Below, in pieces: positions 1,523-26,700 of a stretch of DNA of 64,000 bases (the stretch's first letter is position 1; every line of letters begins with the position of its first letter). The DNA comes from Candidatus Oxydemutatoraceae bacterium (GTDB lineage: Bacteria; Pseudomonadota; Gammaproteobacteria; Poriferisulfidales; Oxydemutatoraceae): assembly GCA_965220085.1 (NCBI GenBank), contig CBDCOZ010000003.1:1321683-1385682 (forward strand), written 5' to 3'. Below the pieces are notes generated by a model. That model was given only the letters and a program-made list of their open reading frames with translations, was not told the origin of the DNA and did no database searches. The translations under genes and the position numbers were made by a program.

Positions 1523-4500
1523 TTATCGCAGCGGGCCTTCAAGGAAGAGACGCAGGCGCAGTCTGATCCCGGCGCGGGGCTCTGTCACCTCAATCGTCAA
1601 TTCCCAGTCATCGGATTCTACCGCCTCCGCGCCGGCAAAGGAAACGCGCACCGCCACGGTGTGTGTCGTTGCCACAGGGCCCAGCGCGGCGGCGGCGGCC
1701 AAACGAATCTCGCCGCTGGCGGAATCTATCGCAAACAGGCCGCCCGCATTATCGCTCAGACTCCACGTCAGGCCGGATGTCACCGGATTATTCGCTTCGT
1801 CGCGCGCGACCAGCGCGATGCCGGATACCGCCGTCGCGGTCGCGGCGTTCTCGGCGATGCGGTTGTCAGCGCTATTGTCGTCCGCAACCCTCAGCGACTC
1901 CAATACATTCGTTACGTTTATCATCAGAGTATATTCGCCGATGCTGCCGTCGCTTGCGGTCGCCGCCGCCCTCACGCGATGGCCGGCGTCGGTTTCGTAG
2001 TCCGGCGCGCGGTCGGCGGACGTACGGACGACGCCGGCTGTGGTAATCACAAATAAGCCGCTCGCATCGTCTGTCAGTTGCCAGATGATACCGCTCAGCG
2101 CGACACCGTTCCTCGTCGCCGCCAGCGATACGCCCGCAACCGCCGTGTCTGCGCTATTCTCAACGATTGTGTTCGTAGTCGGGTCGGTGTCGCTTACCGT
2201 CGGCGCGATAATCGCCTCGTCAAAATCGATCACCGTGATCATCAAGTCCAGCCGGTTGGAAAGCACGGCGCCTTCCGCCGCTTGTGCCGTAATCGTGTGC
2301 GTCGCCGATGTTTCGTAATCTAACATGCCGGCCAAGCGTATCGCGCCGCTGTCGGCATCGATTGCAAACAGCCCGTCGGCGTCCTCGGTCAGGCTCCAGG
2401 TCAGTCCCGATGTCACCGGATTATTCGTTTCGTCGGTTGCGACCAGCGTAATACCGCCGAGTAGCGCGCCGACCGGCGTATTCTCGGCAACCGCAATGGT
2501 TGCGGTGCTGCGGTTTGCGATCGTCAGCGACTCCGGCGCATTGTCAATCGCTATCGCTACCTCCAACTCGGCGTAGACCATGTTATCGGTTTCAACTCTT
2601 ACCCTAACGGTATGCGTTTGTGTATTTTCGTGATCCTCCACAGACCTTGCGAGCACGATCTCGCCGCTAGCGGAGTCTATTGCAAACAGTCCGTCGGCAT
2701 CATCTGGCAAACTCCAGGTCAGCCCCGACGTCACCGGATTATTCGTTTCATCGCTTACAACCAGCATGATGTTGCTCACTGGCGCGCCGACCAGCGTATT
2801 CTTGGCAATACGGCTGTCGGGAACCGCCCCGATGGTGATATCGGGCATAGCCGCGTTGGTAACCGTCAATCTCTTCGGCACATTCCCCACATCCGCCCGC
2901 ACAGCAAAGGGAGCGGACAGATCTCCGTCCCGCTCCGCTCGCACTTGCAACACGTATGTCGGAGTAGTTTCATGATCCAGTTCGGCTCTTGCCAGTGTTA
3001 TCTCGCCGCTGTCGCGGTCTATTGCAAACAAGCCGCCCGCATCATCGCTCAGGATCCAAGTCAGGCCGGAGGTCACCGCGCTGTCGCCGTCGTTTGCGAT
3101 CAGCGTGATGCCGCGCAACGGCGCGCCGACCGTCGCGTTCTCGGCAATCGTGTTCGCGGCAGGGTCGGTATCCGCGATCGCCAGTCCGACCGGCGCCGCG
3201 GAGCGGCTCGCCTCGCCGCCATGGACGATGGCCGCAACCGAATAAGCATGCAATGTGCCCGCGACCCGCTCCGTATCCTCGTAAGTCATCACCGCAGTCG
3301 CAGTCGTTATCGCGATACCGTCGCGATAGACGGCATACGCAATCGCCGGCGGCGATTGCCAATGGCTTGTATCCGGCGCACTCCACGTCAGCACGTTGGC
3401 ATGGTCGGCGTATGTTATCGCCGCATCCCGCGGCCCTTGGCGCAGTTGATAACCGAACTCTTGCCAACTCGGCGTGCCTTCGCCGTCAAAGTCTGTTTTC
3501 AGCGCCGGGTACTCGTCCGCCGCGCCAAAATCCCAGTAATCGATGGAACCGTTCACATCCCACTTGGCATAGATACCGACATGCCCGGTCGGGGACTGCA
3601 ACTCGGCGGCGGTCTTGGCGGCGACACCCGCCGCAGAACCGAAGCCGAAAGCAACGCTCTGTCCGGACACGTCGCTATCCCAGTAGACCGCTTCAAAGAC
3701 GGGATTGCCCCCGGCAACCCTGCCGGCAACGCCGCCGTGATTCCCCGGCGCGACCAACGCGGTCGAATACGCATACTCCAGCCGCATATTGCCGCCGACA
3801 GAACCCAGCAATCCGCCGCCCTGTCGTTGCGCATTCACATAACCGGCGGCATACACATGCTCTATGATGATGTTCGCATCGTTATCGCCGCCGCCGCTCA
3901 AGCCGCCGCCTGCGGCATCGGCGAGCGCGCGACCGGTCGCATAACTCGCGCGCAACACACCGCCGTTGACCGAACCGAGCAACGAGCCGACTTGCTCTGT
4001 CCCTTGCGCGGCTACCGTTGAATAACTCTGCGCAACCGTGCCCCCGGCCAACTCGCCGACCAAGCCGCCGACGGCCGTTCCGCCGCGCACCGAACCGGTG
4101 ACGCCGACGCCGGTAATCGTCGCGCCGGCGGCGGAACCGAACAAGCCCTGCGCATCGGCGTCGCGGCGAATGTAAAGGTTCTCGATTACATGACCGTTGC
4201 CGTTAAACGCCGCGATAAAGCGGTTTTCACGCGCGCCGATCGGCATCCAGCCCGCGCCCGCTGTCCACTCCGAGTTCGTGCTTGCGGCATAGCTGCCGCT
4301 ATCGTTAAAGTCAAGACTCCGTGTCAATTCATAGCCGTTGCAGCCATGCGCGCAGTTCAGATCAGCGGCGCTATGAGGGAAAGCTGTCTCATAGCGCCGT
4401 GAGTCCGCGGATGGGATGCCATCGCCATCCAAGTCCCAGCGCAGCGCGTCAAGCTGCTCGAGGTTAGTGATTTCAATCAAGCCGTTATCGTCGGTGTCGT

Positions 4501-7500
4501 AATCGCGCGAGCGGGATACGGCGACGCTGCGAGCCGCCTCGCCGCCGTCGATCACCGCGACGACATGATAGGTGTAATCGCTGCCGATCGCAGCAGTAGT
4601 ATCGGCATACTCGGCGCGCGCCTCCGCGACACTTGCCAGCGCGAGGCTATCGCGATATACGGCATAGGCGACAACCGTATCCGCGGCGCAGTGCGTCGTA
4701 TCCGGCGCGCTCCAACTCAAGTCTCTGTCGCCGACTCCGCGCACCGTCAGCGCCAAGTCCTCGCGTATCTGACAGCCGAACTCTTGCCAACTCGGTATGC
4801 CGTCGCCGTCAAAATCCGCTTTCAAAGCGGGATATTGTTCGGCGTTGCCGAAATCCCAATTATCGCTGTCGTCCGCGTTCCAGTCGGCGTAGATGCCGCT
4901 GTAAGCCGTCGGCGTTTGCAACTCCGCGCCCGTCTTGCCGGTCGCGCCCGAAGCGGACCCCGAACCGGCCGCGCGCTGTTTGCCGGTGACTTGGGCATCC
5001 CAATAGACGACGGCAAACGTCGGATTGACGCCGTTGACTTCGCCGGCGATACCGCCGCTCGTCGCCGCCGCGGAGTTGATCAATGACGCGGCATAGCTAT
5101 ATTTGATCTGTAGCGCCCCCATGTTGCCAATCAGGCCGCCCGCTGCCCGTTGCGCGTTCACGTATCCCGTCGCATAGACATACTCAACGGTCGTATTCGC
5201 GCTGTTGCCGCTGCCGCCGATGAGACCGCCGGCGACCGCAGTGGCGCTGGTATTGCCGCTGGCATAGCTGGCAAGAACCGCTCCGCCGTCGGCGTAGCCG
5301 ACCAAGGGAGCGACCGCCTCGCCGCCGCGCGCCGATACTGCCGAGTAACTGTTCGTGACGATGCCGCCGGATAATTCGCCGACCAGTCCGCCGCTTTGAT
5401 CGCCGCCAGCGACCGATCCCGTTATGCCGATATTGGACACTGTCGCACTGCTGTTGATGCTGCCAAACAGACCCTGACGATCCGCGGCGCGATCGATGCG
5501 GAGGTTATCGATGCGGCGACCCTTGCCGTCAAATACCGCCGCATACCGGTCTTCCCGGGCGCCGATCGGCAGCCAACCCGCGCCCGTCGACCGCTTGGCG
5601 CTATCGCTGTCCGGCGCATAGCTGTTCGCATCCGCAAAATCCAGATCCCGGGTCAATTCATAACCGCCGCAACCGCTCGGGCACCCCTTGCCGCCGGAAG
5701 ATTTCGGGAAGGCGATCAGATAGTGGCTCCGGTTCTCGGTGCTGGCATGGCCGTCGCCATCGGTATCCCAGCGTATCGCATTCAGTTGATCCAGATTGGA
5801 AATATCAAGCAGGTTATCGTCATCCCGGTCATAATCTATCGTTGCCAATGTCTCAACGTGACGGCTCGCTTCGCCGCCGTTGACGACGGCGGCAATATGG
5901 TAGGTGTGCGCGATACCGCCGACGCTCGTCTCATCGAGATAACGCGCTTCGGCTATGCCGCCCGGCGCGGTCAGACGTATCCCGTCGCGGTAGACCGCAT
6001 ACCCGACCGTCGGCGGCGTCGCGCAGTGAGACACATCGGGCGCGTCCCAAGTCAGTTTTACCGCAGCGCCGACAAGGTAATGCACCGCGTTTTGCGGCGG
6101 CTCGCGCAACTGGCAGCCAAACTCCCGCCAACTCGCCTCGCCGTCGTTGTTGAAATCGACCTTCAATGCCGGGTATTGATTGTTGCTGCCAAAATCCCAA
6201 TAGTCGGCGCCGTCCGCATTCCAGTTGGCATAGATGCCGGCATAGGTCGTCGGCGCTTGCAGTTCGCTGATGGACTTGTCGCCGCCTTCATAGCCGGGGC
6301 CGAGCACATGCAGACCGATCGGATTGTCTCTGCCCGATGCCCCGGCATCCCAATACACGGCGGTCAGCGCATCGCTCCTGAGCGCATTAAAGCCGATAAG
6401 TCCCCCGCTTTCTATCGGGTCGGGGTGAATCAAAGCGGCGCTATAACCGTATTTGAGTTGCGCCGACTGCAAACTGCCGATCAGTCCGCCGGCCCACCTG
6501 TTGAAAGTCGCCATCGTCGCATCTACAAAACCGGTCGCATACACATGCGCTATCTCGCTGTCGTTGCCGCCGCCGCTGTCATCCGCGCGTCCGATCAAGC
6601 CGCCGGCGCGACCGTTGGCATGGGTATTGCCCGTCGCATAACTCGCGCGAATGACGCTGCGCTTTGCGCTTCCGAGCAGAGAGCCGATAGAGCGGTCGCC
6701 CAGCGCCGTCACCGCCGAATAGCTGTCCCTGACCGCGCCGTCGCTCAGTTCGCCAATCAGGCCGCCGACCCGATCGCCCGATGCGCTCAAACTCGACGCG
6801 CTCGCATCCACCGTGCCGGTCACGCCGACATTGCGCACTGTGCCGCCGACGACTGCGCCGAACAAACCCTGACGGTCGGCTTCGCGATCGATGGAAAGGT
6901 TGGCGATTACGTTGCCATTGCCGTTGAAGATCGCCGTGAAAGGCGCGGCTTCGCTGCCGATAGCAACCCAGCCCTCGGCGCTTCCGGCGCTGGCGGCGCG
7001 CAAATCCAAATCGTTGATCAATTCGTAGCCGGCGCAGGTTCCGACGCAACCCATATTGGTCGCGGCATCGACAAACCGCGTGACATACTCTTGCGTGCTC
7101 GCCGACGGCGCGCCGTCGCCGTCCAAATCCCAACGTATCGCAGCGAGTTGCTCCGCGGTGGCGACCTCAATCAAACCGTCGTCGTCGCTGTCATAGTCCC
7201 GCGCCATAGAGACAGCGACGCCGCGTACCGCTTCGCCGCCATGGACAACCGCCGCCACATGATAGGCATATGTGTCGTCGATCACGGCGGCGGTATCGGC
7301 GTAAGTCGTCTCGGCGATGCCTTCGCCCGCGGTCAAAGCCGCGCCGTCACGGTAAACGGCGTAGGTAACCGCTTGCGGCAACGCGCAGTGGTCGGTATCG
7401 GGCGCGCTCCAATTCAAGGTTCTTGAGGTTCCGGCGCCGCTCGCCGTCACGACCGGCGCGCTGCGCGCTTGGCAACCGAATTCCCGCCAACTCGCGGCGC

Positions 7501-10500
7501 CGTCGCCGTCAAAATCAACTTTCAGCGCGGGGTACTGATCGGAAGCGCCAAAGTCCCAGTAGTCGCTATTGTCCGTATTCCAGTTCTTGTAGATGCCGGT
7601 GTACGTCGTCGGCATCCGCAATTCAAAGCTCGTCTTGCCGTCGATACCGGAATCGGAACCGGCGCCGACACCGTTTTGCTTGCCCGAAGTTTCGCGGTCC
7701 CAATAGATATCGGCAAATGCGGCGTGGCTGTTCTCGCCGACGACACCGCCGGCCATCGTCGCCGCGCTGTCGATCAAGGCTGTGGAATACGCGTAACTTA
7801 TTTGCCCGGCACTGGTATCGCCAATCAAACCGCCCAACACTTCGCCGCTGTTATTGACGCCGCTCACATAGCCGGTGGCATAGGCATGCTCTGCCGTGCC
7901 TCCGAGGGCGGCGATACGACCGATCAAACCGCCCGCCCGGTTCGCAGCCGCCGCGTTGCCGGTCGCATAACTGCGACGCACCGCAGCCGCCCTGACCCTG
8001 CCAGCCAAAGAACCGACCTCGGAGCGTCCGCGTACCGCGACCGCCGAATAGCTGTTCTCTATCGCGCTATCGGTTCGCAGCAGACCGACCAAACCGCCGA
8101 CAACATCGTTGCCGACGACCGCGCCGGTGACACCGAGGTTGCCGATGCGCGCCGGCGTCTCGATCGCGCCGAACAAACCTTGTGCGGTTGCGTCGCGGTC
8201 GATATGCAGGTTATAGATCGTATGACCGTTGCCGTCGAACGTCGCCGCAAACCTGTCGCCGGCGGCGGGCGCGCCAATCGGCGCCCAACCCTCGCCCGTG
8301 GTCCACGCGCTGCTGACGTTGCCGGTCACATAGCTGGCAAAGTCGTCAAAGTCCAGATTCCTCATCAACTCATAACCGCTGCAACCGCCGGGGCAACCCA
8401 TGTCATCGGCGGGATCGGGAAAGACGGCGGCATACGTCGCGCTGCTGTCCGTTGCCGGAACGCCGTCGCCACCCAAATCCCAACGCACCGCGTCCAGTTG
8501 CTCCAGACTGTCGATCTCGATCAAGCCGTCGTCGTCGTCGTCGTAATCGACTATCCTTGAGCGGATGCTTTGGCGCGCGGCTTCCCCGCCGTCGATGACT
8601 GCCGCAAGGTGATAGACATATTCGGTGTCGGCGCTGCGTTGCGCATCGACATAACTCGTCGCGGTCCATTCGCCGGCGGCTGTCAGCGCTTCGCCGTCGC
8701 GGTAGACGTTATAGGAAACGCTTGTGTTCGCCTTGCAGTGAGACACATCGGGCGCACTCCAGGCCAAGGTCCTGACATCGCCGGTGCCGCGCGCCGCCAA
8801 TATCGGTTTTTCGCGCACCTGACAGCCGAACTCTTGCCAACTCGCTTCGCCGTCGTTGTTGAAATCGATCTTCAACGCCGGATACTGCTTGCTGCTGCCG
8901 AAATCCCAATAGTCGCCGCCATCCGTATTCCAGTCGGCATAGATGCCGACATATCCCGGCGGCGACCGCAACTCGGCGCTGCTCTTGCCGTCGATGCCGT
9001 CGATCGCTCGGTCCGCCGCATTGTCCCGGCCCGAGGTCTCAAGATCCCAATACACGGATGCGAATACGCTGTCCGAACCGGCGACGCCGACCGCGCCGCC
9101 GCTGCGTGGCAAGTCGGGGACGACCAGCGCCGTGGCGTAAGCGTAGCCGATCCGCGCGCCGCCGGCATCGCCAATCAAGCCGCCGCCTTTTCTGTTTGCA
9201 TTGTCGCCGTTTATATCCACGCGCCCGGTCGCATACGCATGTTCCAGCGAGGTGCTGGCGTTGGAAACAAAGCCGAGCAGACCGCCGACCTGATTGCTCG
9301 CGGATACGTTGCCGGTGGCATAGCTTGTGCGCAACGCTATGTTGGCGACATAACCGACGATACCGCCGGCAAAACCGTTTGCCCGCACCGACACCGCGGA
9401 GTAACTGTTCGCAATCGCGCCGCCCTCCAAACTGCCGACCACGCCGCCGACCCGATTGCCGGCCCTGGCGATCGCGCCGGTCACGCCGATGTTCGCAATC
9501 GTTGCGCCGCGGGCATCGCCGAACAAGCCTTGTCTTTCCGCGTTGGTGTCGATGCCGAGGTTATAAACCGTATGGCCGTTGCCGTTGAACGCGGTCGCGA
9601 AAACATTGGTGAGATTGCCGATTGGATCCCAGCCATCCGCCCATGCCGAATTGACCGCGCCGCTCGCATAGTCGGCGGGGTTGTCAAAATCCAGATCGCG
9701 CGTCAGTTCATAGCCGCCGCAAACCCCCGGGCAACCGACCGTGCCGACGGTGTTCGGGAAGGCCGCGGCATAATCCGCCGCATGGTCCGCATCATCGGGA
9801 TTGCCATCGCCGTCCATGTCCCAGCGCATCGCGTTGAGTTGCTCCAATGTGCCGATCCCGATCAAACCATCGTCGTCGATGTCGTAATCCCGCCCCGATA
9901 CGATGACACTGCGGCTCGCTTCGCCGCCGTTGATGACCGCCGCAACATGGTAGGCGTATATCGTGTCGGCATCCGCGGTTACGTCGGCGTAGGAAGATGT
10001 CTCTATGCCGTCGGCGAGCACGATGCCGTCGCGGTATACGGCATAGGTAATCGTCGGCGTGGAAGCCCAATGAGAGAGCTCAGGCTCCGACCAATCCAGC
10101 GTTCTGGATGTGAGCTGATAGCCCACGGTCAAATCTGCCGGGCCCTCGCGCAACTGGCAGCCGAACTCCTGCCAACTCGCCTCCCCGTAGCCGTCAAAAT
10201 CTGTTTTCAGCGCCGGGTATTGTTCGGAAGTTCCAAAATCCCAGTGGTCGCTATCGCTTGTGTTCCAATTCTCATAGATGCCGGTATAGGTCGTTGGCAT
10301 CTGTAATTCGGCGCTCGTCCATCCGCTGATGCCATCATCAGAGCCGTCGCCGACGCCGTTGTTCTTGGCCGAGGTCTCGCGGTCCCAATAGACATCGGTG
10401 AACGTCGCATTGACATTCTCACCGACGAAGCCGCCGCTCATCGACGCTATGGAGTCAAGCAATGCGGTGGAATAACCATAGTTGATCTGTCCCGCACCGG

Positions 10501-13500
10501 CATTGCCGAGCAAACCGCCCGACGATTCGCTGTTCCGATTGAAGCCGCTCACATACCCGGTCGCATAGACGTGCTCTACAGTGCCGCCGTGCGCAGAAAT
10601 ACGACCGATCAAACCGCCCGTCCGATTAAAGCCTTCCGCATTCCCGGTCGCATAACTGCGGCGAATCGTACCCGCCCTGAGTCTGCCGACCAAGGAACCG
10701 ATATCAAAGCGTCCGCGTACCGCGACCGTTGAAAAACTGTCCTCTATCACCCCGTCAGTTCGCAACTGACCGGCCAAGCCACCGGAAACCTCTCTGACAC
10801 GTACCACACCGGTGACACCGAGGCGGCTGATGACCGCCGGGGTTTCAACGATACCGAATAAACCTTGTGCAGCCGCATCCCTGTCAATATGCAGGTTATA
10901 GATCGTATGGCCGTTGCCATTGAAGACCGCGGTAAATTTATTATCGGCGCCACTTCCGCCGATCGGCTCCCAGCCCTCGCCCTGCGTCCAGGCCGTCGTG
11001 ACCGTGCTGCCCTCGACATAACTGCCGACATCGGCAAAATCCAGATCGCCGTTCAGTTCATATCCGCGGCAACCGCTGCCAGCCGGGCAACCCATGCCGG
11101 GCAGAGCGGCGTCGGGGAAAACCAACAGATAGGCGCGGGTGCTTGCCGCCGGAACGCCGTCGCCGTCCAAGTCCCAACGCACGACATTGAGCTGATCCAA
11201 ACTGCTGATCTCGATCAAACCATTGTCGTCGGTATCGTAATCGGTCGATCGTGACACCGCGACACTGCGGCTGGCTTCGCCGCCATGGACCACCGCCGCC
11301 ACCTGATACACATAGTCAACGCCGTCGATCGCGCCGCTGTCCATATATGCCGTATCGCGGATGTCGTCGTCGCGGGTCAGCGCGACACCATCGCGATAGA
11401 CCGCATAGCCGACGGCCGGAGCCGGGTCCCAATGCGATGTATCGGGCGCTTGCCAAGCCAGTTTCCTCGGCGCGCCGCTGCCGGTCTCCAAGCGCGACGG
11501 GCCTTCGCGCAACTGATAACCGAATTCCTGCCAACTCGCTTCGCCGCTGTTGTTGAAATCGATCTTCAATGCCGGATACTGCTTGGCGCCGCCGAAATCC
11601 CAATAGTCGCCGCCGTCGGCATTCCAATTCGCATAGATACCGGCGTAAGTCGTTGCCATCTGTAATTCCATGCTCGTCTTGCCGCCGATACCGGAATCAG
11701 AACCGTTGCCGACGCCGTTGCTCATGGCCGAGGTCTCAACATCCCAATAGACATCGTCGAATGTCGCCGCGTCACTCCTGCCGACGAAACCGCCATGGAA
11801 GGTCTTTGCGGGGTACACCAAAGCGGTAGAATACGCAGAGCGGATCTGTCCCGCTCTGACACGACCGATTAAGCCGCCGACCGAACTATTGGCGCCGCCG
11901 CGCGTACCGTCCGCGTAACCAGTCGCATAGACATGTTCCACACTCGCCCCCTCCGAAGCAATGCCGCCTATCAGACCGCCTATCTGGCTAGAGCCTGTCG
12001 CGTTGCCGGTCGCATAACTTCTGCGAACTATCCCGCCTTGGATGTCACCGACCAAAGAACCGACGCCATGGGTTCCCCGCACCGCGACCGCCGAGTAACT
12101 CTCCTCTACGGTGCCGCCGTCATATATCCGCCCGACCAAACCGCCGGCGGCATCCTGCACTCTGATGGAACCGGTCACACCGACGCGTCGGACTATCGCC
12201 GGCGCTTCGATTCCCCCGAACAAACCTCGCAGGGACGGGGTTCCGCCGCCATACAAGTTATGGATCGTATGACCGTTGCCGTCAAATGTCGTTTCAAACC
12301 TGTTGCCGACAAATTTCTCGCCGATCGGCGGCCAGCCATCGCCTTCTGTCCACGCGGCATTGATCGCGCCGGAAGCATAACTCGCGGGGTCGGCAAAATC
12401 CAAGTCCTTGATCAACTCGTAGCCGCGACAAGCGGAGGTCGCTGTCGACACCGCGGCGGGACAGCCCATGCCGGGCAGCGCGGCGATAAAAGCGCGTTGA
12501 TATCGCTGCGGCTCAAACATCGGGGGCCCCTCGCTGTCCAAGTCCCAACGCACCGCATCCAACTGTTCCAATGTGGCGATTTCAATCAAACCGTCGTCAT
12601 CGCGGTCGTAATCTCTTATCGGCAACACAAAACCGGCGCTGCGGCTCGCTTCGCCGCCGCCCACGACCGCCGCAACGCGGTAGGTGTTAATGATATCAAG
12701 GTCTATCGCCGCGTCGACATAGCTTGTCCGCGCAAGACCGTCCGCCGCGACCGCATCGTTGTGATAGACGACATAGGCGATGATTGGCGCAGACGCCGGC
12801 CAATGCGATGTGTCAGGCGTCGTCCAACTCAGTGTGCGGGAAGCGCCGATGCCGCTCATCGTCAGCGTCGGGCCTTCGCGCAACTGATAGCCGAATTCCT
12901 GCCAACTGATGTCCCCGTCGTTGTTGAAATCGACTTGCAACGCGGGGTATTGTTTGTCGGCGCCGAAATCCCAGTAGTCGGTGTTCTCCGCATTCCAGCT
13001 CGCATAGAGATCTTCATAGTCGGCAAAGGCCTGCAAGAGAACGGTCGGCGCGCCGGCGACACCCGGGGCATAGCCGCCGCTCACCGCTTTGTCCAATTCG
13101 CCCGAAGCGTCAACATCCCAATACACGCTGTCAAAAACCGGGGCGCCCGCGGATGCCCCGCCGCCGATAGCGCCGCTGCGCTTTGCCTCTGCCGGGACGC
13201 GCGCGGTAGAGTAACTGTAACGGAGTCGCACCGCCCCCAGATAACCGATCAGACCGCCGGCGTCGTTGTCCGCGTCACTGACGGCCACGGCCAGTTGACC
13301 GGTGGCGTAAGTATGTTCCACCGTGCTTTCGTTTGAATACGCATAGGCCTCGCCGATCAAACCGCCGACCCCTCGGTGGCCGCGCACATAGCCCGTGGCA
13401 TAACTCGCGCGCACGGTGCCTTTGTCATTAAAACCAAGCAACGAACCGACCTCAAATGCCGAATCCAATGCCACCGTGGAATAACTCTCTTCGATCAGAC

Positions 13501-16500
13501 CGCCGTGCAGCTCGGCGACCAAACCGCCCGCCCGCTCCTGGTGTCGGTCGGTCCTTATCGTGCCGCTGACGCCGATGTTTGAGATGACGCCATCCTCGCC
13601 GACCGAACCGAACAAGCCCTGCCGCCCCGCATTGCGCCGGATATGCAGGTTTTCAATCGCATGGCCGTTGCCGTTAAATGTCGTCGCAAACGGATTGCCG
13701 CTGTCGCCGATTGGCGGCCAACCTTCGCCGCTCATCCAGGTATCGGTGCTGCTCAAAACATGGTCGGCGGGGTCGGAAAAATCCAGATTCGTCAACAACT
13801 CATAGCCGATGCAACCGCTTTTCGGGCAGCCCATGCCCTCCGTCGCAATCAAAAATGCGGCCTGATAATTCGCCCGATTGCCCGCGGTCGCAATACCATC
13901 GCCGTCCAAATCCCAGCGCATCGCGTTGAGTTGATCCAGGTTGGCGATGTCTATCAGACCATCGTCGTCAAAGTCATAATCGCGTCCCGACATCGCATAA
14001 CTGCGGCTTGCTTCGCCGCCGTCTATGACAGCGGCAACGTGATACGCATAGGAACTGGTCGTATTGGCGGTCATATCGGCATAAGATTCGGCCGATAAAT
14101 TATAGGCCCCGGCTAACGCGATGCCGTCGCGGTAAACCCGGTAGCGGATAGGCGGCGCGGCATCCCACTCAGGCGCCGCGGTCGGCGCTTGCCAATTCAG
14201 AGATCGGGCGGTATCGCCATATGCGACCGATAACGCCGGCGGCCCTTGGCGCAACTGGTAACCGAATTCCTGCCACCTCGCCTCGCCGTTGCCGTCAAAA
14301 TCAACTTTCAGCGCGGGGTATTGCGCGGCGCTGCCAAAGTCCCAATGGTCGCCGCCGTCGTTCCAATTGGCATAGATACCGGCATAGTCTGTCGGACTCT
14401 GCAACTCGGCAGTCCCTTTGCCGCCGATGCCGGTGACCGCACCCAACCCGATCGCATCGTTCTTGGCCGAAGTCTCGGTATCCCAATAGACAGCGGTCGC
14501 CTCAACCGAAGCCGCAAAAACACCGCCGACACCGCCGCTCGCGCTGCCTGACGGATGAAGCAGACCGGTGGCATAACTATACTTGACATTCGCATTGCCC
14601 AGATTGCCGATCAAACCGCCGCCGAACTGACTGCTGCCGCCGCGGGTTACGTTCACATAACCGCTCGCATACGTATGTTCAATCGTCCCATTCGCGGAGC
14701 CGCTGTCGTCTCTGCCGAGCAAGCCGCCCGCTTCGGAGTTGGCAAACACATTGCCGGTCGCATAACTCCTGCGGATGGCGGCGCCCGCCCGACTGGCGCC
14801 GAGCAAGGAGCCGACATAAGCCCGGCCTTCGACCGCCACCGCGGAGTAGCTGTCTTCTATCGTGCCGCTCGCGCTATCGCCGATCAGTCCGCCGACATAA
14901 TTATTGTCGCCCGCGTCGATGGATCCGGTGACGCCGACATTGCGCACCACAGCGCCGGCGATCGCGCCGAACAACCCTTGGTAGGGCGCGTTGCGGTCGA
15001 TGCGCAACCTGCGAAGCGTATGGCCGTTGCCGTCAAAGGTCGCCGTAAACGCGGCGCTGTCGCCGCCGATCGGCGGCCAACCGGCGCCGCTCGTCCACGC
15101 CGTGTTGATACGGCCGCTGTGATAACTGTCGGCGGCGGCAAAATTCAAATCGCGCGTCAACTCATAACCGATGCACGCATCGTTGACGCAACCCAGACCG
15201 GAAATCGCGCTGTGAAAAGCGCGGTCGTAGTCCGTTTGATCGCCCGCGGCAACGACGCCATTGCCGTCCAAGTCCCAGCGCATCGCGTTGAATTGTTCCA
15301 ACGTACTCACTTCGATCAGACCGTTGTCATCGCGGTCATAGTCATACGATTCCGATACGATGGCGCTGCGAATCGCCTCGCCGCCGTAAACGTTCGCGGC
15401 GACGTGATAGACGTAGTTGCGGGTCGCGGTCGTGTTCGTATCGGCGTATTCCGTCAGCGCCGTGTTTTCAATCTCCGGCACGAGGATGCCGTCGCGATAG
15501 AGCGCAAACGTGACCATCGGCGCCGGCGCGCAGTGCGAGGTGTCGGGCATATCCCAAGTAAGAGTTCTGGTTGCATGGACTCCGCTCACTGTCAGCGTCG
15601 GCCCCGTGCGTAACTGGCAACCGAACTCCTGCCAACTCGCCTCACCGTTGCCGTCAAAATCGATCTTCAGCGCCGGGTACTGCTCGGACGTGCCAAAATC
15701 CCAGTGGTCGCCATCGCTTGCATTCCAGCTCGCATAGATGCCGGTGTAGGTCGTCGGCAGTTGTAGTTCGGCGCTCGTCCATCCGCTGATGCCATCATCG
15801 GAACCGTCGCCGACACCGTTGCTATTGGCCGAGGTCTCGCGGTCCCAATAGACATCGGTGAACGTCGCATTGACATTCTCACCGATGACACCGCTGCCCA
15901 TTGATACTATGGGGTCGATCAAAGCGGTGGAATAACCGTAGCCGATCTGTCCCGCCTCGACACGACCGATTAAACCACCTAACAATCTACTGTTACTATC
16001 TAAGCCACTTACATACCCGGTCGCATAGACGTGCTCTACGGTGCCCCCGTGCGTAGAAATACGACCAATCAAACCACCCGTCTGCCTATGCGAATTTATA
16101 TTCCCGGTTGCATAACTCGTACGAACCGTGCCCGCCCTGAGTCTGCCGACCAAAGAACCAACTTCGTTGCGTCCGCTCACCGCGACCGTCGAAAAACTGT
16201 CCTCTATCACCCCGTCAACGCGCACCTGACCGGCCAAGCCGCCGGAAGTATCCTGCCCGTTTACCGCACCGGTGACACCGAGGCGGCTGATGACCGCCGG
16301 GGTTTCAACTACACCGAACAAACCTTGCAGAGATGCATCCCTGTCTATATGCAGGTTATAGATCGTATGACCGTTGCCAGCGAATGCCGCTACAAATCTA
16401 TTATCGGCGCCACTGCCGCCAATCGGCTCCCAACCCTCGCCTTCGCGCCACGCATCATGGACTTTGCCGGTAGCGTAGCTGTCGGGGTCATCAAAATCCA

Positions 16501-19500
16501 GGCTTTGATCCAATTCATACCCGCGACACCCCGAAGGCTCGGCGGAGGTCGACGCAACGGCCGGACACCCCATGCCGACCAGCGCGCCGACAAAAGCTTT
16601 GCCGTAGGCGCGGGCGCCGGCGGATGCAATACCGTCGCCGTCCAAGTCAAACCGCACCGCATCCAGTTGCTCCAGCGTGCTGATTTCAATCAAGCCGTCG
16701 TCGTCGCTGTCGTAATCGTTGATCGGCAACACGACGCGGTCACTGCGGCTCGCTTCGCCGCCATGGATAACCGCCGCCACCCAGTAGGCGTTTCTGACAG
16801 CGAGGTCCGCGCCGGTTATGGCGTAACGCGTCTGCGCAAAGTCTATGCCGTCGCTCAAGAGCGCGCCGTTGTGATACACGGCGTAGGTGACCGTCGGCGT
16901 AGCGGGCGACCAGTGCGACACATCGGGCGCGCTCCACTCCAGCGTCCAATCGGTATCGGCCCCGCTGGCGGTCAAATTGGCGGGGCCGTCGCGCAACTGA
17001 TAGCCGAATTCTTGCCAGCTCGCGATGTCGTCATTGTCAAAATCAACTTTCAGCGCCGGGTATTGCGACGCGCTGCCGAAGTCCCAGTAGTCGCCGCCGT
17101 CGGCATTCCAGTTTTGATAGATGCCGACATAGCCTGTCGCCGCCTGCAACCCGGCCGTCGTCTCGCCGCTGATGCCCGCAACCGCCGCCGACCCGCTCGC
17201 GCTGTTCGCGATGCCCGACGTGTCAATATCCCAATAGGCATCGCGGAGTATGGCGTTCGCATTGATCACACCGCCGCCGACTCCGCCGCTGCGTAACACG
17301 CCGGCGGGAAGTTGCGCGGTCGCGTAGCCATAGCCGAGCCGCACCGCTCCCAGATTGCCGATCAAACCGCCGACATTGTAATTAAAACCCCCGCTCGCCA
17401 AACTGATTTGCCCGGTGGCGTATGTATGCTCGACCGTGCTGCCTGTGGAGACGCCGTACACTTGACCGATCAAGCCGCCGATTTCCTGATGACCGCTTAC
17501 ATTGCCCGTCGCATAACTCGCGCGCACCGCGCCTTGCTCGTTGTAGCCGAGCAGCGAACCGACGTCAAATCCGGCCGCGACCGATACCGTCGAGTAACTC
17601 TTTTCAATGCGACCGCCGCCGACCATTGCGGCGACCAAGCCGCCCATCAATTCTTGATACGGGGTCGCAGTAATCGCGCCGGTCACACCGACATTTGAGA
17701 TCATCGCGCCTTCGCCGAGTTCGCCGAACAGCCCTTGTTGGTTCGCCAGACGACCGATATGCAAGCCCTCTATGGCATAGCCGTCGCCGTTAAACGTCGC
17801 TGTGAAGCGATCACCGCTGTCGCCGATCGGCGACCAGCCGTCGCCCGCCGTCCATGCCTCGTTGACAGCGCCGCCGGCATAGCTCGCCGCGGCGCGGAAA
17901 TCGAGCGCGGTCGTCAGTTCATAGCCGCTGCAACCGTCGGCGCAACCCATGCCGGCGATCGCATGCGGGAAAGCCCGCGCGTAGTCTCCGGCGTGATCGG
18001 ATGTCGGCGCGCCGTCGCCGTCCGTGTCCCAACGCAACGCATTCAGTTGTTCCAAGTTGGCGATCTCTATCAAACCGTCGTCGTCGCGGTCGTAGTCATG
18101 CGATCTGGATACGACGCGCGCGCGGATCGCTTCGCCGCCATCGATGACAACGGCGACATGATAGACATAATTCGTGCCGGCGATCGCGGCGGTGTCGGCA
18201 TAACGCATCGCCGTCAGGTTTTTGCCATCCGACAACACGGAGCCGTCGCGATAGACGGCAAATGCGACGGTGGGCGAAGAGGCGCAGTGAGCCGTATCGG
18301 GCATGCCCCAACTGATATCCCTCCGCTGATCGGCGCCTTGCGTCGCCGCCGCGACGCCCGCGCGCAACTGGCATCCGAACTCTTGCCACGTCGCCATGCC
18401 GTCGTTGTTAAAGTCAACTTTCAGAGCCGGGTATTGCTCGCTGTCGCCGAAATCCCAATGATCGTTGGCATCCGCATTCCAGGCGCCATAGATACCGGTA
18501 TACGTCGTCGGCAAGCGCAACTCGGCGGTGGTTTTGCCGATGACACCGTCGGCGGCGCCGTTGCCGACCGCGTTCGTTGCGCCGGAGGTTTGGGTATCCC
18601 AGTAGACGGCGGCAAACACGGAGTCGCTGCCGGTGATCCTGCCGATGACGCCGCCGCGCGCGCTCATATTGGGAGCGACCGCGGCCGTGGCATAGCCATG
18701 CCTCAGTCGCGAACTGTGACTGACGTCGGCGACCAATCCGCTCGCAAATGCGCTCGGGTGATCGCTCGTCGTGCCGACATAACCGGTGGCGTAAACATGC
18801 TCCGCGGTCGCGCTTCCCAAAGTGGAACCGGCCGCGCCGATCAAGCCGCCCGCCGCGTTGATGGCATAGGCGCTGCCGGTCGCATAACTGCTCCGAACCG
18901 CGCCGGTTTCAAGACGACCGACCAGAGAAGCGACGCCATGCGACCCCTCCGCCGTGACCGTTGAGTAGCTGTTGGCAACCGTGCTGCTATTGCTTACCTG
19001 CCCGACCAAGCCGCCGATATTGTCGCTGTTGCTGCCGTTGGACCTTGACGCCACTTTGCCGGTCACGCCGACATTGGCAATCATCGCGTTTTGACCGCCG
19101 ACGCCGAAGAGTCCCTGATGCGACGCCAGACTGTCGATGCGCAAGTTGTAAATCGTGTGACCGTTGCCGTTGAATTCTGTTTTCAGGCGGCGGATGTTGA
19201 CGCCGATCGGCGACCAACCGGCGCCGCTTGCCCATACGGTGTTCGTGGTGCCGGCGGCATAGCTGTCAAGGTCGGCAAAATCCAAATCGCGGAGCAACTC
19301 GTAGCCTCTGCAACTGCCGCTGGCGGGACAACCCATGTTGGCGGCGGCGCCGGGGAAAGCCGCGGCATACGATTCGGCGACCCAGGATAAGGGCGTGCCG
19401 TCGCCGTCCAAATCCCAACGCACCGCATTGAGTTGATGCAGATTGCCGATCTCGATCAGACCGTCATCGTCGCTGTCATAGTCGGCAGCGGATGCATAAG

Positions 19501-19597: not shown

Positions 19598-19718
19598 CTA
19601 TTTATTAATGGGTGACACCCCCGGACATGTTTATAAATGTTCTTAGCGAAGGTGTTAAGCGAGTATACAAGTGCGTCATAAGTGGCTGGCGAATCATATA
19701 CTTAGCATGTGTATATCC

Positions 19719-20054: not shown

Positions 20055-20137
20055 AATGTGTCGCCTCGCAGACGCGACCAAGAATGTGCTACTGATGCCT
20101 TGTTAATATTTCTGTGGGCAAGTCTGTCCCCCAACGC

Positions 20138-21693: not shown

Positions 21694-21694
21694 A

Positions 21695-23012: not shown

Positions 23013-23760
23013 TTACCGGAGGGGGCCTTCGAGGAAGACGCGCAAGCGGATCCGGATTCCGACATCGACATCGGGTCGCTCCGTCGCCATAATGGTAATG
23101 GTCAGCATAAACGGAGCGGATACCACCATCTCGCGATTGGGTTCTCTGAACGAAGCCCGCACTATTATGGTACGCGTCTGCTCCGTCTCAAGGTCCGGCG
23201 CGTCGTTCGCCAATGTAATCGCGCCGCTGGCAGGGTCAATCGCGAACAAGCCGCCGGGGTTCGTCACCAAGTTCCACGTCAGCCCTTCCGTCACTTCCGT
23301 GCCCGCTTCGTCGGTCACCATAAGCCGGATACCCGGCACCGGCGCGCCGGCCCGCGCGCCCTCGGCAATGATACTGCCGGCGCCATCGCTGTCGGTAACC
23401 ATCAATGTCTCCAGCACATTGGTCAGGTTTATCGTCAGAACCAGCGTGGCCGGCTGATAACGGTCGACCACGGCGGTTACGGTGACGCTGTAAACGCGAT
23501 CTTCGCTTTCGTAATCCGGCGCGGCTTTCGCCAGCGTAATCTCGCCGCTGGTGGAATTGATTGCAAACAAGCCCTCCGCATCATCGCTCAAACTCCATGT
23601 CACGCCGCTGACAATGGCAGCGGAGGCGGCTTCGTCCCGCGCTTGCAATGTCACGCCCGATATCGCCATGCCCGCCGTCGCCGTCTCCGCCACTGTGTTG
23701 GCGGTCGGGTTGATGTCGGTTATCGCCAGCGTTGTGTTGGCTTGCACCGCGTACGCATAG
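23013..23760 (-). repeat. Cadherin-like repeat region (2-3 repeats) plus conserved C-terminal tail of giant protein 2
   Basis: TAVAET..AGMAISGVTLQARDEA...VSGVTWSLSDDAEGLFAINSTSGEITLAKAAPDYE...YSVTVTAV is followed by a second unit and then ERPDVDVGIRIRLRVFLEGPLR*. Confidence 0.7.
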
Positions 23761-26700
23761 GCGGCGCGGATCGCTTCGCCGCCGTTGACGACGGCCGCAA
23801 TATGATATATGTCTCCGTCGGCCGCGCCGGTCACATCATGCTTTGTCTCTTCCAAACCCGATGCGCCCGGCAAAGCGCCCCCGTTGCGGTAGATCGCATA
23901 AGCGACCGACCGACACGGGCTGCCGGCATCCCAAGGCGACGTATCCGGGGCCCTCCAGTTCAATCCGTGCACGCTCTCGTCATCGGCATCCGTTACCGTC
24001 GCGCTCACTCCTTGCGGGCCTTGGCGCAACTGGCAACCGAACTCTTCCCAACTCGGCGACGTAGCCGGATTGTCGTCAAAATCCGTCTTCAGCGCCGGGT
24101 ATTGTTCGGCGCTGCCGAAGTCCCAATAGTCGGCGTTGCCGGCATTCCAATTCGCATAGATGCCGCCATAGCCGGTCGGCGCCCGCAACTCGGCGCTCGT
24201 CTGCGCGAGCGGCCCGTTCGTCTCGGCGTTGCCTTCAATGATGGCGTAGGCATCATCGACCGCGGGCACGGATATGTCGGCAGCCCAATAGACCGCGTCA
24301 AACACGGTGGTTTGATTGCTGTTAAAGCCGGCGATACCGCCGCGCTCGGCGGCATCCGCGGCAATCGGCGCGACCGCGTAGGCGTATGTGAGCGTTGACG
24401 CGCCTATCCGGCCGACCAAACCGCCCGCCCGCGCATCGTCGGTGGCGCCGATGTAACCGGTCGCATAGACATGCTCCGCAACGGCGCCGTCCCCAAGCGA
24501 GCCGGCTATGCCCGCGACTTCCTGAGCAGCCGATGCGGCGCCGCTCGTGTAACTGCGCCGCAGCGCGCCGCCGCCGGCAATCTGCCCCGCCAACGGCGCG
24601 GCGCGGAGCCGCCCGCCGCTGACCGATACCGCCGAATAGACCTCTTCTATCGTCGTCCCCGCGGCCAAGCCGACCACGCCGCCGGTATCGCTGCTGTTAG
24701 CGCCCGCCGTCACCGAACCGGTCACGCCGAGATTGGAAATCGTCGTCTCGCCGGTCGCTCCGAACAGCCCCTGCCGGTTAGCATCGCGCTCGATAAACAG
24801 GTTATAGATCGCATGGCCTTTGCCGTTGAAAACGCCGGTGAATCGTGTCGCGGAATTGCCTAACGGCGACCAACCCGCGCCGCCTTCGTCACGGGTCCAA
24901 CCATTGAGTCCGGCATTGAGGATGCCATAATCGTTCGGGTCTTCAAAGTCCAAATCGCGCGTCAACTCATAACCTGTGCAACCGCCCACGGCGGGGCAAC
25001 CCATCCCGTCCAAAGCGCTCGCAAACGCGTGGGTCGCCGCGTAAGCCGCCGCATCGTCTGCCGCCGCCGAACCGTCGCCGTCGAGATCAAAAGCGACCGC
25101 GCCCAGTTGCTCCAGCCGCGTGATCTCTATCAGGCCATCGTCATCGACATCGTAATCGCGACCCGCGCGCACCGCGCTCCGACCCGCTTCGCCGCCGTCG
25201 ATGAGCACCGCCACGCGATAACTCAGCAGGCCCGAGGCATCGCTGTCGACATAGCGCCTCTCCGCGGTCACGCCCCGGGCGACGCTGCCGCGATACACCC
25301 GATACCTCACGCCCGCGGCCGGGTCCGCATCCGGCGCGCTCCACTCAAGAATGACGACGTTGCCGGTCGTCTGCAACGGCTCCAGTATCGGCGCCGCGCG
25401 CAACTGATTGCCGAACTCCTGCCACGTCACCTCGTTGTCGCCGTTGACATTCGCCTGCAACGCGGGATACTGCGCAGCGCTGCCGAAGTCCCAGTAATCG
25501 CTGCCATCGTCATCCCAAACCCCGTAGATGCCGCTATAGCCGGTCGGCGCCTGCAAAACGGAGGTCAACCTCCCGCCGAGATCAGACGTGCCGCCCGTAC
25601 CGCCGGCCAAGGCATTATTCAGACCCGAGGTCACGGTATCCCAGTAGCTCGGCGCAAATGTCGCGGCGCTGCCAGGCGCAGCGCCGCCGATACCGCCGCC
25701 GTTGGCGGCATCCGCGTCGATATAGGCGGTGGAATAGCCGTACTTCAGTTGCGCCCGACCGACCGCGCCGAGCAGACCGCCGGTCGCCGTCGTCGCGCCG
25801 ACAAAGCCGGTCGCGTACGCATGCTCCGCCGCCGTCGTAATCGCCGTAGTGGTGGATATGTCGTGCGCCGCGCCGATCAGGCCGCCCGCCTGTCCGTCGG
25901 CGCGCACCACGCCGGTGGCATAAGCCGCGCGCACCGTGCCGCCGCCGTGATAACCCAGCAAGGAGCCCGCCGCCTGCGCGCCGGTCACGTTGACCGACGA
26001 CCAAATCTGCTCCAATGTGCCGCCCGCCAAAGAACCGGCGATGCCGCCGACATTAGCGCCGCTCGCATCGATGTCGCCGATTACGCCGACATTGCGCACC
26101 GTGCCGGCGGCGCCGACGACGCCGAACAGCCCGCGGTCATCCCCGGCGCCGACAACATTCAAGTCGCTAACCGTTTCGCCGTTGCCATCCAGCGTCGTCG
26201 CAAAGGGAGCCTTCGCCGTGCCAATCGGCGTCCATTCGCCGTCCAGAGCGAGGCTGTTAGCCAGCTCATAGCCGACGCACTCGCTCGGGCAACCCATGCC
26301 GGGGACGGCCTCGGGGAAGGCCGCCCTATATGTCGGCGCGCTTGCCGTCGGCGAGCCGTCGCCGTTCAAATCAAACCGTATCGCATCAAACTGCGCCGCC
26401 GTCGCCACTTCTATCAGGCCGTCATCATCGGCATCGTAATCAATCAAACCCGACTCTGCCGCGCCGCGGCTCGCCTCGCCGCCGTCGATCACCGCCGCCA
26501 CATAGTAGAAATAGGATACGCCGGCGACCGCGGTGTTATCGACATGCGTCAGCGCCGAAGTGCTCGCCAGCGCCGGCAAGGCGCCGTCGCGATACACGTT
26601 GTACGCAAGCGCCGGGGGCGGGTCGCAGTGCGACACCTCCGGCGCCGACCACGTCAGCGTGCGCGCAGAAGCGAGACCCGATACCGTCAGCGCCGGCGCC

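What the first reader, a model, noticed from the sequence alone, without database searches (positions are those of the whole stretch)
1523..1570. Shared C-terminal tail GIR[LI]RLR[LV]FLEGPLR on both giant proteins: candidate novel sorting/anchoring tag
Gene 1 ends ...TEPRAGIRLRLRLFLEGPLR* and gene 2 ends ...ERPDVDVGIRIRLRVFLEGPLR* (at 23013-23080). The final ~14 residues are conserved while the preceding cadherin repeats have diverged. The tail is an alternating Arg/Leu amphipathic strand followed by FLEGPLR. It matches no sorting signal I know: not LPXTG, PEP-CTERM, GlyGly-CTERM, T9SS CTD, and no C-terminal Phe beta-barrel signal. Selective conservation of a very short C-terminal peptide is the hallmark of a processing or sorting tag recognised by a dedicated enzyme.
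Basis: seen in the sequence. Interest (0 to 1): 0.7.

Follow-up and report, generated by a model that had tools for sequence, protein, structure and literature searches.

The report
Short shared tail on giant adhesins
Two giant secreted cadherin-like proteins, and at least five more from the same genome, all end in the same 12-15-residue arginine/leucine peptide that matches no known sorting signal. It looks like a new, rare address or docking tag, but its partner is still unknown.

Summary
Gene 1 (1523-19597, minus strand, 6,024 aa) ends GIRLRLRLFLEGPLR*. Gene 2 (23013-62723, minus strand, 13,236 aa) ends GIRIRLRVFLEGPLR*.

Selection acts on the peptide, not the DNA. In the tail, pS is 0.69 and pN 0.08. 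In the preceding 213 codons, pS is 0.585 and pN 0.39.

A profile of the two tails, searched against 1.84 billion proteins, found five further proteins ending ...L[RK]LRLRLFLEGPLR. All five sit on the same 2.05-Mb contig as the window. A 231-aa protein from an unrelated, lower-GC metagenome contig ends GIRIRAKVFLEGLLQ behind a different domain.

The tail is always at the extreme C-terminus. It follows a linker of very variable length and is the only cationic alternating run in these very acidic, Sec-signal-bearing proteins. It is a β-type amphipathic strand with no transmembrane helix. It hits no NCBIfam, Pfam or PDB entry.

Relatives of the family carry LPXTG-like or Cys-TM-Arg anchors at the same position.

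Best reading: an autonomous docking or anchoring tag that is recognised in trans. No enzyme, cleavage or receptor is shown, and the rest of the genome could not be read.

The parts
1526..1570 (-). Tail of gene 1: GIRLRLRLFLEGPLR (stop codon at 1523-1525)
   Evidence: Translation. Identical in an independent Logan contig. AlphaFold2 places it outside the last Ig-like domain, with pLDDT below 50.
23016..23060 (-). Tail of gene 2: GIRIRLRVFLEGPLR (stop codon at 23013-23015)
   Evidence: Translation. 13 of 15 residues match gene 1, with about 9.5 synonymous differences. AlphaFold2 predicts IRIRLRVF as a β-strand at low confidence.
1523..19597 (-). Gene 1, 6,024 aa. Sec-type signal peptide, then 12 units of about 430 aa with the GLUG motif, then about five cadherin-like domains, then the tail.
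   Evidence: ORF list. Pfam Cadherin 1.6e-26 and Glug 1.8e-06. Motif counts. The same protein with a start 6 codons later is P0126 in NCBI/ENA.
23013..62723 (-). Gene 2, 13,236 aa. Sec-type signal peptide, then about 26 GLUG units, then two cadherin-like domains, a 7-aa linker, and the tail.
   Evidence: ORF list. Pfam Cadherin and Glug. Motif counts and charge, D+E 1,624 against K+R 729.
1571..3210 (-). Block of cadherin-like domains in gene 1 directly before the tail (approximate limits)
   Evidence: Pfam PF00028. The AlphaFold2 model of the last 240 aa shows two complete β-sandwich domains, and Foldseek matches cadherin-23 EC repeats at E about 1e-9.
23061..23723 (-). Two cadherin-like domains plus the ERPDVDV linker in gene 2, directly before the tail (approximate limits)
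   Evidence: BLASTP and alignment with gene 1. AlphaFold2 model.
19487..19597 (-). N-terminal signal peptide of gene 1 (MNISSVMKYLEGVTELKILLAGIAALAACCSVSYASA|ADYD)
   Evidence: Read from the translation. It also contains a lipobox-like LAAC. This is a sequence-based inference only.
62592..62723 (-). N-terminal signal peptide of gene 2 (...LLFCCVFSLALSGIVSA|QT)
   Evidence: Read from the translation. The paralogues P0127, P0130, P0132 and P0133 have matching A-x-A|Q ends.

Best explanation
The last 12-15 residues form an autonomous C-terminal tag. The consensus is [GAV][IL][RK][LI]R[LA][RK][LV]FLEG[PL]L[RQ]-COOH. The tag is an amphipathic β-strand, with Ile/Leu on one face and Arg on the other, followed by a fixed FLEGPLR end. 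It hangs on a linker of very variable length behind the last Ig-like domain of Sec-exported, very acidic, giant GLUG/cadherin surface proteins.

I propose that it works in trans. After export, a component of the cell envelope or matrix binds the strand and its free C-terminus. That component could be a receptor protein that takes the strand in by β-strand addition, or an anionic polymer or membrane surface. This binding would hold or sort the whole set of giant adhesins at one common site.

Shown: the tail exists, it is under strong peptide-level selection, it is modular, it recurs in at least 7 proteins of one genome and in one other organism, it lacks a transmembrane helix, and it hits no known model. 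Inferred: that it is bound in trans, the nature of the partner, and that it serves retention or sorting rather than cleavage.
For: (1) Recurrence. P0127 (4,953 aa), P0130 (1,515), P0132 (4,042), P0133 (1,620) and P0143 (1,448) end in ...L[RK]LRLRLFLEGPLR. All are on the 2,046,636-bp contig that also holds the window's genes.
(2) Modularity. The tail sits 2-3 residues after the last domain in P0127 and some 17 residues, through a Pro/Asp-rich linker, in the P0130 group. In P0141 (GC about 47%, different organism) a variant, GIRIRAKVFLEGLLQ, follows a non-cadherin Ig-like region.
(3) Peptide-level selection with saturated synonymous sites.
(4) It is the most conserved stretch of the C-terminal 230 aa.
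(5) Its β hydrophobic moment is 0.9-1.15, against 0.3-0.4 for a helix. It is the only [RK]x[RK]x[RK]x run in each protein, and these proteins have 2-4 times more acidic than basic residues.
(6) The last cadherin domain is already complete. AlphaFold2 leaves the tail unpacked in gene 1 (pLDDT below 50) and draws it as a low-confidence strand in gene 2.
(7) Positional analogy. Single-unit relatives of the GLUG family carry recognised kinds of anchor at the same place: an LPATGG signal followed by a TM segment and basic residues, GG-x-C followed by a TM segment and an RRK cluster, or dockerin-like repeats. This compares with the tripartite signals described in bioRxiv 10.1101/2023.06.07.544157.
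(8) Five of six readable N-termini are Sec-type signal peptides, so the tail is outside the cytoplasm.
Against: No partner was identified. The window holds no sortase-like or receptor-like candidate. Its neighbours are an M23 peptidase, a pterin dehydratase, a coiled-coil membrane protein and restriction-modification fragments.

All seven carriers in this genome belong to one paralogous family, so inheritance of a family-specific end cannot be fully separated from a shared address. The only out-of-genome case is one 944-bp contig.

The strict motif is absent from 185,579 species-representative genomes, from the JGI metagenome collection and from IMG/VR. Its distribution is therefore very narrow for a sorting system.

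Which end of the proteins is attached to the cell is unknown. Gene 1 has a lipobox-like LAAC in its signal peptide, which would make the tail the distal end in that protein. AlphaFold2 for gene 2 allows the strand to lie on its own domain.
Confidence: 0.5

Rival explanations
1. A cleaved sorting signal. A dedicated peptidase or transpeptidase recognises FLEGPLR, cuts there (for example at Glu-Gly or Pro-Leu), and attaches the protein covalently to the envelope. It would resemble sortase or exosortase, or ligases that read a very short C-terminal tail.
For: At least seven proteins of one genome share an invariant extreme-C-terminal motif behind a linker. This is the classic signature used to discover sorting signals. 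The most invariant part is FLEG-x-L at the very end.
Against: The defining tripartite design is missing. No hydrophobic helix follows the motif and no basic cluster follows a helix. No NCBIfam sorting-domain model matches. The window holds no candidate enzyme other than a housekeeping-type M23 peptidase. No evidence of cleavage exists.
Confidence: 0.2
2. An intramolecular cap. The strand folds back onto the exposed edge of the last Ig-like domain and merely stabilises the end of the rod. It has no addressing role.
For: AlphaFold2 draws residues 122-129 of the gene 2 construct as a β-strand, at pLDDT about 56-58. The strand has strong β amphipathicity.
Against: In the gene 1 model the tail is unstructured, with pLDDT below 50, and the last domain already has a full set of strands. 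The linker varies from 2-3 to about 17 residues. The same tail follows a different kind of domain in P0141. An Arg face has no conserved acidic counterpart in the diverged domains.
Confidence: 0.12
3. An export signal for the step after Sec. A dedicated outer-membrane translocon would recognise the tail to move 1,400-13,000-aa proteins out of the periplasm.
For: The proteins have Sec signals. They show no autotransporter barrel, T9SS C-terminal domain or TPS domain in the regions scanned. The best full-length matches of the neighbouring M23 peptidase are proteobacterial, which hints at a cell with an outer membrane.
Against: The cell-envelope type of the organism is not established. No translocon gene lies in the window. 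The tail lacks the terminal aromatic residue of the outer-membrane β-signal.
Confidence: 0.1
4. Not a protein feature. The similarity would be residue of a recent duplication or gene conversion, or a shared DNA/RNA element such as a terminator or recombination site.
For: The two genes are paralogues. The seven bases TAAGCAT, which include the stop codon, are shared at and just after the stop.
Against: Synonymous sites in the tail are as diverged as elsewhere or more so (pS 0.69). The longest identical DNA run is about 9 bases. DNA similarity ends 4 bases after the stop. No terminator-like site is called on the coding strand. A lower-GC organism encodes the tail with different codons.
Confidence: 0.03

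Closest known systems
Tripartite C-terminal sorting signals: LPXTG/sortase, PEP-CTERM/exosortase, GlyGly-CTERM/rhombosortase, PGF-CTERM/archaeosortase, and MYXO-, JDVT-, Synerg- and CGP-CTERM/myxosortase-like enzymes
   Same: A short motif at the extreme C-terminus, shared by many secreted surface proteins of one genome. It lies behind a low-complexity linker, on proteins that have N-terminal signal peptides. Relatives of this very family carry such signals at the same position.
   Different: There is no hydrophobic transmembrane segment and no basic cluster after one. The whole tag is 12-15 residues, with Arg alternating inside a β-strand. No HMM match. No cognate enzyme is known.
T9SS C-terminal domain on giant gliding or adhesion proteins such as SprB
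   Same: It marks Sec-exported, repeat-rich giant surface proteins at the C-terminus for a post-Sec step and for surface attachment (general knowledge).
   Different: The T9SS domain is a folded β-sandwich of about 70-100 aa with its own HMMs. Here there are only 15 residues and no hit.
Strand-donation and strand-addition contacts: chaperone-usher N-terminal extensions, the C-terminal donor strand of type V pili, the 'latch' strand of MSCRAMM adhesins, and PDZ-type binding of a free C-terminus
   Same: A terminal peptide with alternating hydrophobic residues (here I-L-L-L-L on one face) next to Ig-like domains. This is the kind of element that is taken up as an extra strand by another protein (general knowledge; pattern).
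   Different: The other face is all Arg. No acceptor domain with a missing strand was found, and the last cadherin domain is complete. There is no homology to any of these systems.
C-terminal secretion signal of T1SS giant adhesins (LapA, SiiE, MpIBP)
   Same: Giant Ig/cadherin-like repeat adhesins whose extreme C-terminus carries the addressing information (general knowledge).
   Different: Those proteins lack a Sec signal peptide, have RTX repeats before the signal, and use about 50-60 residues. Here Sec signals are present and no RTX domain is found.
Outer-membrane protein β-signal (C-terminal strand read by BAM)
   Same: A C-terminal amphipathic β-strand used as a recognition element.
   Different: The β-signal ends in an aromatic residue and belongs to a barrel. 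This tail ends in Arg or Gln and follows soluble Ig-like domains.

Membership tests
Tripartite C-terminal sorting signals (LPXTG, PEP-CTERM, GlyGly-CTERM, PGF-CTERM, MYXO-CTERM and relatives) | Signature motif near the C-terminus, shared by several secreted proteins of one genome | tested here: met
   At least 7 proteins on one 2.05-Mb contig end in the motif.
Tripartite C-terminal sorting signals | A hydrophobic segment long enough for a transmembrane helix directly after the motif (definition) | tested here: not met
   Only 0-2 residues follow FLEGP. The mean hydrophobicity of the strand is about 0 and hydrophobic and Arg residues alternate.
Tripartite C-terminal sorting signals | A cluster of basic residues after the transmembrane segment | tested here: not met
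   There is no such segment. The Arg residues lie inside the strand, before FLEGPLR.
Tripartite C-terminal sorting signals | Match to a curated sorting-domain HMM | tested here: not met
   NCBIfam at E up to 10 gave nothing relevant on the last 44-500 aa of four tail proteins.
Tripartite C-terminal sorting signals | A cognate sorting enzyme that co-occurs with the signal | not testable with these tools
   No candidate in the window. The rest of the genome is not retrievable.
T9SS C-terminal domain | A folded C-terminal domain of about 70-100 aa that matches T9SS sorting-domain models | tested here: not met
   The tail is 15 aa behind a complete cadherin domain. No NCBIfam or Pfam hit.
T1SS (RTX-type) giant adhesins | No N-terminal Sec signal, with RTX repeats before an uncleaved C-terminal signal | tested here: not met
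   Sec-type signal peptides are present on five of six readable N-termini. No RTX or hemolysin-type Ca-binding Pfam hit in the last 1,000 aa.
Outer-membrane β-signal | An aromatic last residue on the final strand of a β-barrel | tested here: not met
   The last residue is Arg, or Gln in P0141. The preceding fold is cadherin-like, not a barrel.
Bacterial GLUG/cadherin-domain giant surface proteins (the passenger, not the tail) | Pfam PF00028 Cadherin and PF07581 Glug above the gathering score, plus a cadherin fold | tested here: met
   Cadherin 93 bits and Glug 28-31 bits. Cadherin reaches up to 789 bits in the paralogues. Foldseek matches cadherin-23 EC repeats with probability 1.00.

The most novel reading that the evidence does not exclude
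The tail is the first example of a C-terminal surface-protein address that works without a membrane-spanning segment. It would be a 12-15-residue Arg/Leu β-strand with a fixed FLEGPLR-COOH end, read by a still unknown envelope receptor or enzyme. That partner would collect a whole set of Sec-exported adhesins of up to 13,236 aa, about 33,000 aa or roughly 5% of a 2-Mb genome, at the cell surface of a probably host-associated bacterium.
Probability: 0.45. Interest if true: 0.75.

Novelty: new variant of a known kind. Interest (0 to 1): 0.6.

Why it matters
Short C-terminal tags have repeatedly led to the discovery of whole sorting machineries, including sortase, exosortase, rhombosortase and myxosortase. 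This tag lacks the membrane helix that all of those share, so its reader cannot be an intramembrane enzyme acting in the usual way.

It is also attached to some of the largest bacterial proteins on record. How such proteins are held on, or moved across, the envelope is poorly understood. Seven carriers in one small genome give a ready-made substrate set for finding the partner.

Cadherin-domain proteins are enriched in sponge symbionts and are thought to mediate attachment (PMC8163846). If this organism is such a symbiont, the tag is part of how that attachment apparatus is mounted.

Its very narrow known distribution limits its general importance for now.

Tried and rejected
- Word-index protein search with the last 121 aa of gene 1, and with an alignment of eight 44-aa C-termini: nothing at E up to 1 and up to 10. 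This index appears to miss very long proteins, since all 120 hits listed for a GLUG unit were shorter than 810 aa.
- Degenerate DNA pattern for RxRxFLEGPLR in GTDB species genomes and JGI metagenomes: only 7 hits, all out of any ORF context or in AT-rich repeats, so these are chance matches. A pattern ending in a stop codon found nothing in IMG/VR. The source genome itself did not appear.
- Fetching the loci of the other tail proteins (P0127, P0130) or more flank through the M23 peptidase: 'not on record'. No neighbourhood analysis for a processing enzyme was therefore possible.
- NCBIfam, Pfam and PDB sequence searches of the tail: no meaningful hit. The only PDB hit was a 13-residue stretch of a glutathione transferase at E 5.5.
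- Full-text literature search for the string FLEGPL and for the sample accessions: none found.
- RNA or DNA-element reading: no Rfam family, no tRNA, and no terminator-like site on the coding strand. Upstream regions of the two genes are unrelated.
- I considered that the tail is the first strand of a lost further domain or read-through product. I rejected this because the next gene starts 79 nt after the gene 1 stop, the DNA diverges right after the stop, and all eight carriers stop at the same residue.
- A resemblance of LFLEGP to the picornain 3C site (LEVLFQ/GP) and of AGIR to the SecM arrest motif came from memory only. I treated both as coincidence and did not test them.
Full report
**What is there**

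The window carries two very long ORFs on the minus strand: 1523-19597 (6,024 aa) and 23013-62723 (13,236 aa). Their translations end ...TEPRAGIRLRLRLFLEGPLR* and ...ERPDVDVGIRIRLRVFLEGPLR*. A six-frame scan finds FLEGP/LEGPL nowhere else in the 64 kb. The reported coordinates 1523-1570 are exactly the 15 tail codons plus the stop. A Logan assembly of run ERR14375724 is identical over the 231 bases compared, which span the tail, the stop and the sequence just downstream.

**The proteins**

Both proteins start with Sec-type signal peptides. Next come repeated units of about 430 aa: 12 in gene 1 and about 26 in gene 2. These units carry the GLUG motif and the strings DYDxDDDGLIEI and WDFG..QYPALK. 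Then come cadherin domains. Pfam PF00028 scores 1.6e-26. The AlphaFold2 model of the last 240 aa shows two complete β-sandwiches that Foldseek matches to cadherin-23 EC repeats. The proteins are strongly acidic. Gene 2 has 1,624 Asp+Glu against 729 Lys+Arg. The tail holds the only alternating [RK]x[RK]x[RK]x run in each protein.

**Is the conservation special?**

Yes. The last 236 aa of the two proteins are 44% identical, but the tail is 13 of 15 identical. At the DNA level, eight of the 13 identical codons differ synonymously. Nei-Gojobori counts give pS 0.69 and pN 0.08 in the tail, against pS 0.585 and pN 0.39 in the other 213 aligned codons. The peptide is under strong purifying selection, while silent sites are as diverged as in the rest of the gene. 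This excludes recent duplication, gene conversion or a DNA/RNA element as the cause. DNA similarity stops four bases after the stop codon. No Rfam family, tRNA or coding-strand terminator-like site is found.

**Other carriers**

I searched a profile of the two tails (A2) against 1.84 billion representative proteins. It returned gene 1 itself (P0126) and five more proteins whose match runs to their last residue:
- P0127 (4,953 aa): ...EASVLRLRLRLFLEGPLR
- P0130 (1,515 aa): ...EPALKLRLRLFLEGPLR
- P0132 (4,042 aa): ...EPALKLRLRLFLEGPLR
- P0133 (1,620 aa): ...EPALRLRLRLFLEGPLR
- P0143 (1,448 aa): ...DPVLRLRLRLFLEGPLR

It also returned P0141 (231 aa)...ISGIRIRAKVFLEGLLQ.

An exact look-up puts P0126, P0127, P0130, P0132, P0133 and P0143 on a contig of 2,046,636 bp. 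That is the same length as the contig carrying the window's pterin dehydratase and M23 peptidase. One genome therefore has at least seven carriers, together about 33,000 aa. Their architecture ranges from one GLUG unit plus many cadherin domains to 26 GLUG units plus two cadherin domains.

P0141 lies on a 944-bp ENA metagenome contig of about 47% GC and uses different codons. There the tail follows a Pfam 'Cadherin-like β sandwich' (PF12733) domain and a further Ig-like region. The in-frame upstream sequence shows the GLUG-unit end motif DWDFAGETLYPLL. The tag therefore exists outside this genome and behind another kind of domain.

**Anatomy of the tag**

In an alignment of the eight C-termini, the tail is the most conserved 14-column stretch. 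Its identity is 0.85-0.89, against 0.40-0.49 elsewhere, and the cadherin core motif is next best at 0.63-0.68. The distance from the last β-strand of the domain varies from 2-3 residues (P0127) to about 17 residues through a Pro/Asp-rich linker (the P0130 group).

The β-type hydrophobic moment is 0.9-1.15, against 0.3-0.4 for a helix. Mean hydrophobicity is about zero, so there is no transmembrane segment.

AlphaFold2 leaves the gene 1 tail unstructured, with pLDDT below 50, next to a complete domain. For gene 2 it draws IRIRLRVF as a strand at pLDDT about 56-58. So the tail has β propensity, but no confident home on its own protein.

**Comparison with known signals**

NCBIfam, which holds the curated CTERM, LPXTG and T9SS sorting-domain models, gives no relevant hit at E up to 10. 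Pfam and PDB sequences give none either.

The standard design of prokaryotic C-terminal sorting signals has three parts: a signature motif, a transmembrane helix, and an Arg cluster (bioRxiv 10.1101/2023.06.07.544157). The second and third parts are absent here, so the tail is not a member of that class. It is also too short for a T9SS domain. It sits on proteins with Sec signals and without RTX repeats, unlike T1SS adhesins. It ends in Arg or Gln rather than the aromatic residue of the outer-membrane β-signal.

The position is telling, however. Single-unit relatives of the GLUG family were found with one repeat unit as query, and the two that carry a name are annotated as Chloroflexi or Dehalococcoidia MAG proteins. 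These relatives end in an LPATGG sortase-type signal, in GG-x-C followed by a TM segment and an RRK cluster, in dockerin-like repeats, or in DUF11. In this family the extreme C-terminus is where the anchoring module is placed, and it is exchanged between lineages.

**Mechanism**

The best-supported reading, at confidence 0.5, is an autonomous tag that is recognised in trans. An exposed strand with one Leu/Ile face, one Arg face and a fixed free end would be bound by an envelope receptor through strand addition, or by an anionic surface. This would give all giant adhesins of the cell one common point of retention or sorting. The structure of the tag, its selection and its recurrence are shown. 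The partner and the mode of binding are inferred.

The rivals are:
- An intramolecular cap of the last domain (0.12).
- A post-Sec export signal (0.1).
- A non-protein cause (0.03, contradicted by the synonymous divergence).

**Limits**

The window holds no candidate sorting enzyme. Its neighbours are an M23 peptidase and a pterin dehydratase downstream of gene 1. Between the giant genes lies a low-GC island with a coiled-coil membrane protein and a broken DNA methylase. A type I restriction fragment lies upstream of gene 2.

The other five loci and the rest of the genome could not be fetched. The strict motif is absent from GTDB representative genomes, JGI metagenomes and IMG/VR. The known distribution is therefore one genome plus one short contig.

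The taxon is unknown. The M23 peptidase has its best full-length matches in Proteobacteria, at 42-45%, which is only a weak hint. Cadherin-domain genes and restriction-modification systems are enriched in sponge symbionts (PMC8163846). That fits this locus, but the source environment was not established.

**Verdict**

The interpretation as a novel C-terminal tag is supported as far as sequence evidence can go. The involvement of a dedicated enzyme is open. I rate it a new variant of a known kind (C-terminal address tags on surface proteins), with interest 0.6.

Noticed in passing
window 19700-20120 (read on the minus strand): There are five perfect matches to the DnaA-box consensus TTATNCACA, at 19719, 19763, 19818, 19918 and 19979, all in one orientation. 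Only 0.57 are expected in the whole window, and none of 100 shuffles reaches 5. About seven one-off variants are also present, and the unit looks like TTATNCACAG(G/A). This could be a DnaA-box cluster (origin-like or titration site) or an operator array just upstream of gene 1. No GC-skew switch is visible.
   Followed up: partly
window 20000-22900: A low-GC island (0.48, against 0.60-0.69 in the flanks) lies between the two giant genes. It holds a 286-aa coiled-coil protein with repeats of AESGAKTQKEMAKLEAMIAKxRSDTQKEI and a C-terminal membrane helix (20344-21204; matches phrog_9415). It also holds an N6/N4 DNA methylase split into two ORFs (21695-22084 and 22081-22860).
   Followed up: partly
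L001:6286-7056 (about 25-795 bases beyond the left edge of the window, minus strand): A third gene of the GLUG family starts right after the M23 peptidase. It has a signal-peptide end ...SGAVSAQA, then DVDDNGLIEIETLEQL (Pfam Glug 1.3e-4). The pterin dehydratase and M23 peptidase are therefore sandwiched between giant-adhesin genes. The C-terminus of this third gene is unknown.
   Followed up: partly
relatives P0027, P0033, P0047, P0058, P0063, P0069, P0079, P0087, P0090, P0100, P0109, P0114, P0116: Thirteen of the 120 listed single-unit GLUG relatives end in a shared C-terminal signal: GG-x-C, about 10 residues, a hydrophobic helix (LLLAPLGMIGG), then an Arg/Lys cluster. This is the tripartite, invariant-Cys design, yet no NCBIfam model matched the three I tested. 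It may be an undescribed Cys-type CTERM signal.
   Followed up: partly
window 19510-19521 (gene 1 signal peptide): Gene 1 has a lipobox-like LAAC at residues 26-29 of its signal peptide, so it might be lipid-anchored at the N-terminus. Gene 2 and the paralogues have no lipobox and instead end A-x-A|Q. If the lipobox is real, the tail of gene 1 would be the end pointing away from the cell.
   Followed up: no
window 1523-62723: Scale of the family: 6,024 and 13,236 aa in the window, plus 4,953, 4,042, 1,620, 1,515 and 1,448 aa elsewhere on the same 2.05-Mb contig. That is about 33,000 aa, roughly 5% of the contig, spent on tail-bearing GLUG/cadherin proteins.
   Followed up: yes
L009 1-204: Upstream of P0141, the same reading frame continues the GLUG-unit end motif (DWDFAGETLYPLL) but is interrupted by stop codons further up. 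The 231-aa call is therefore probably the end of a longer, broken or mis-assembled GLUG-family gene.
   Followed up: no
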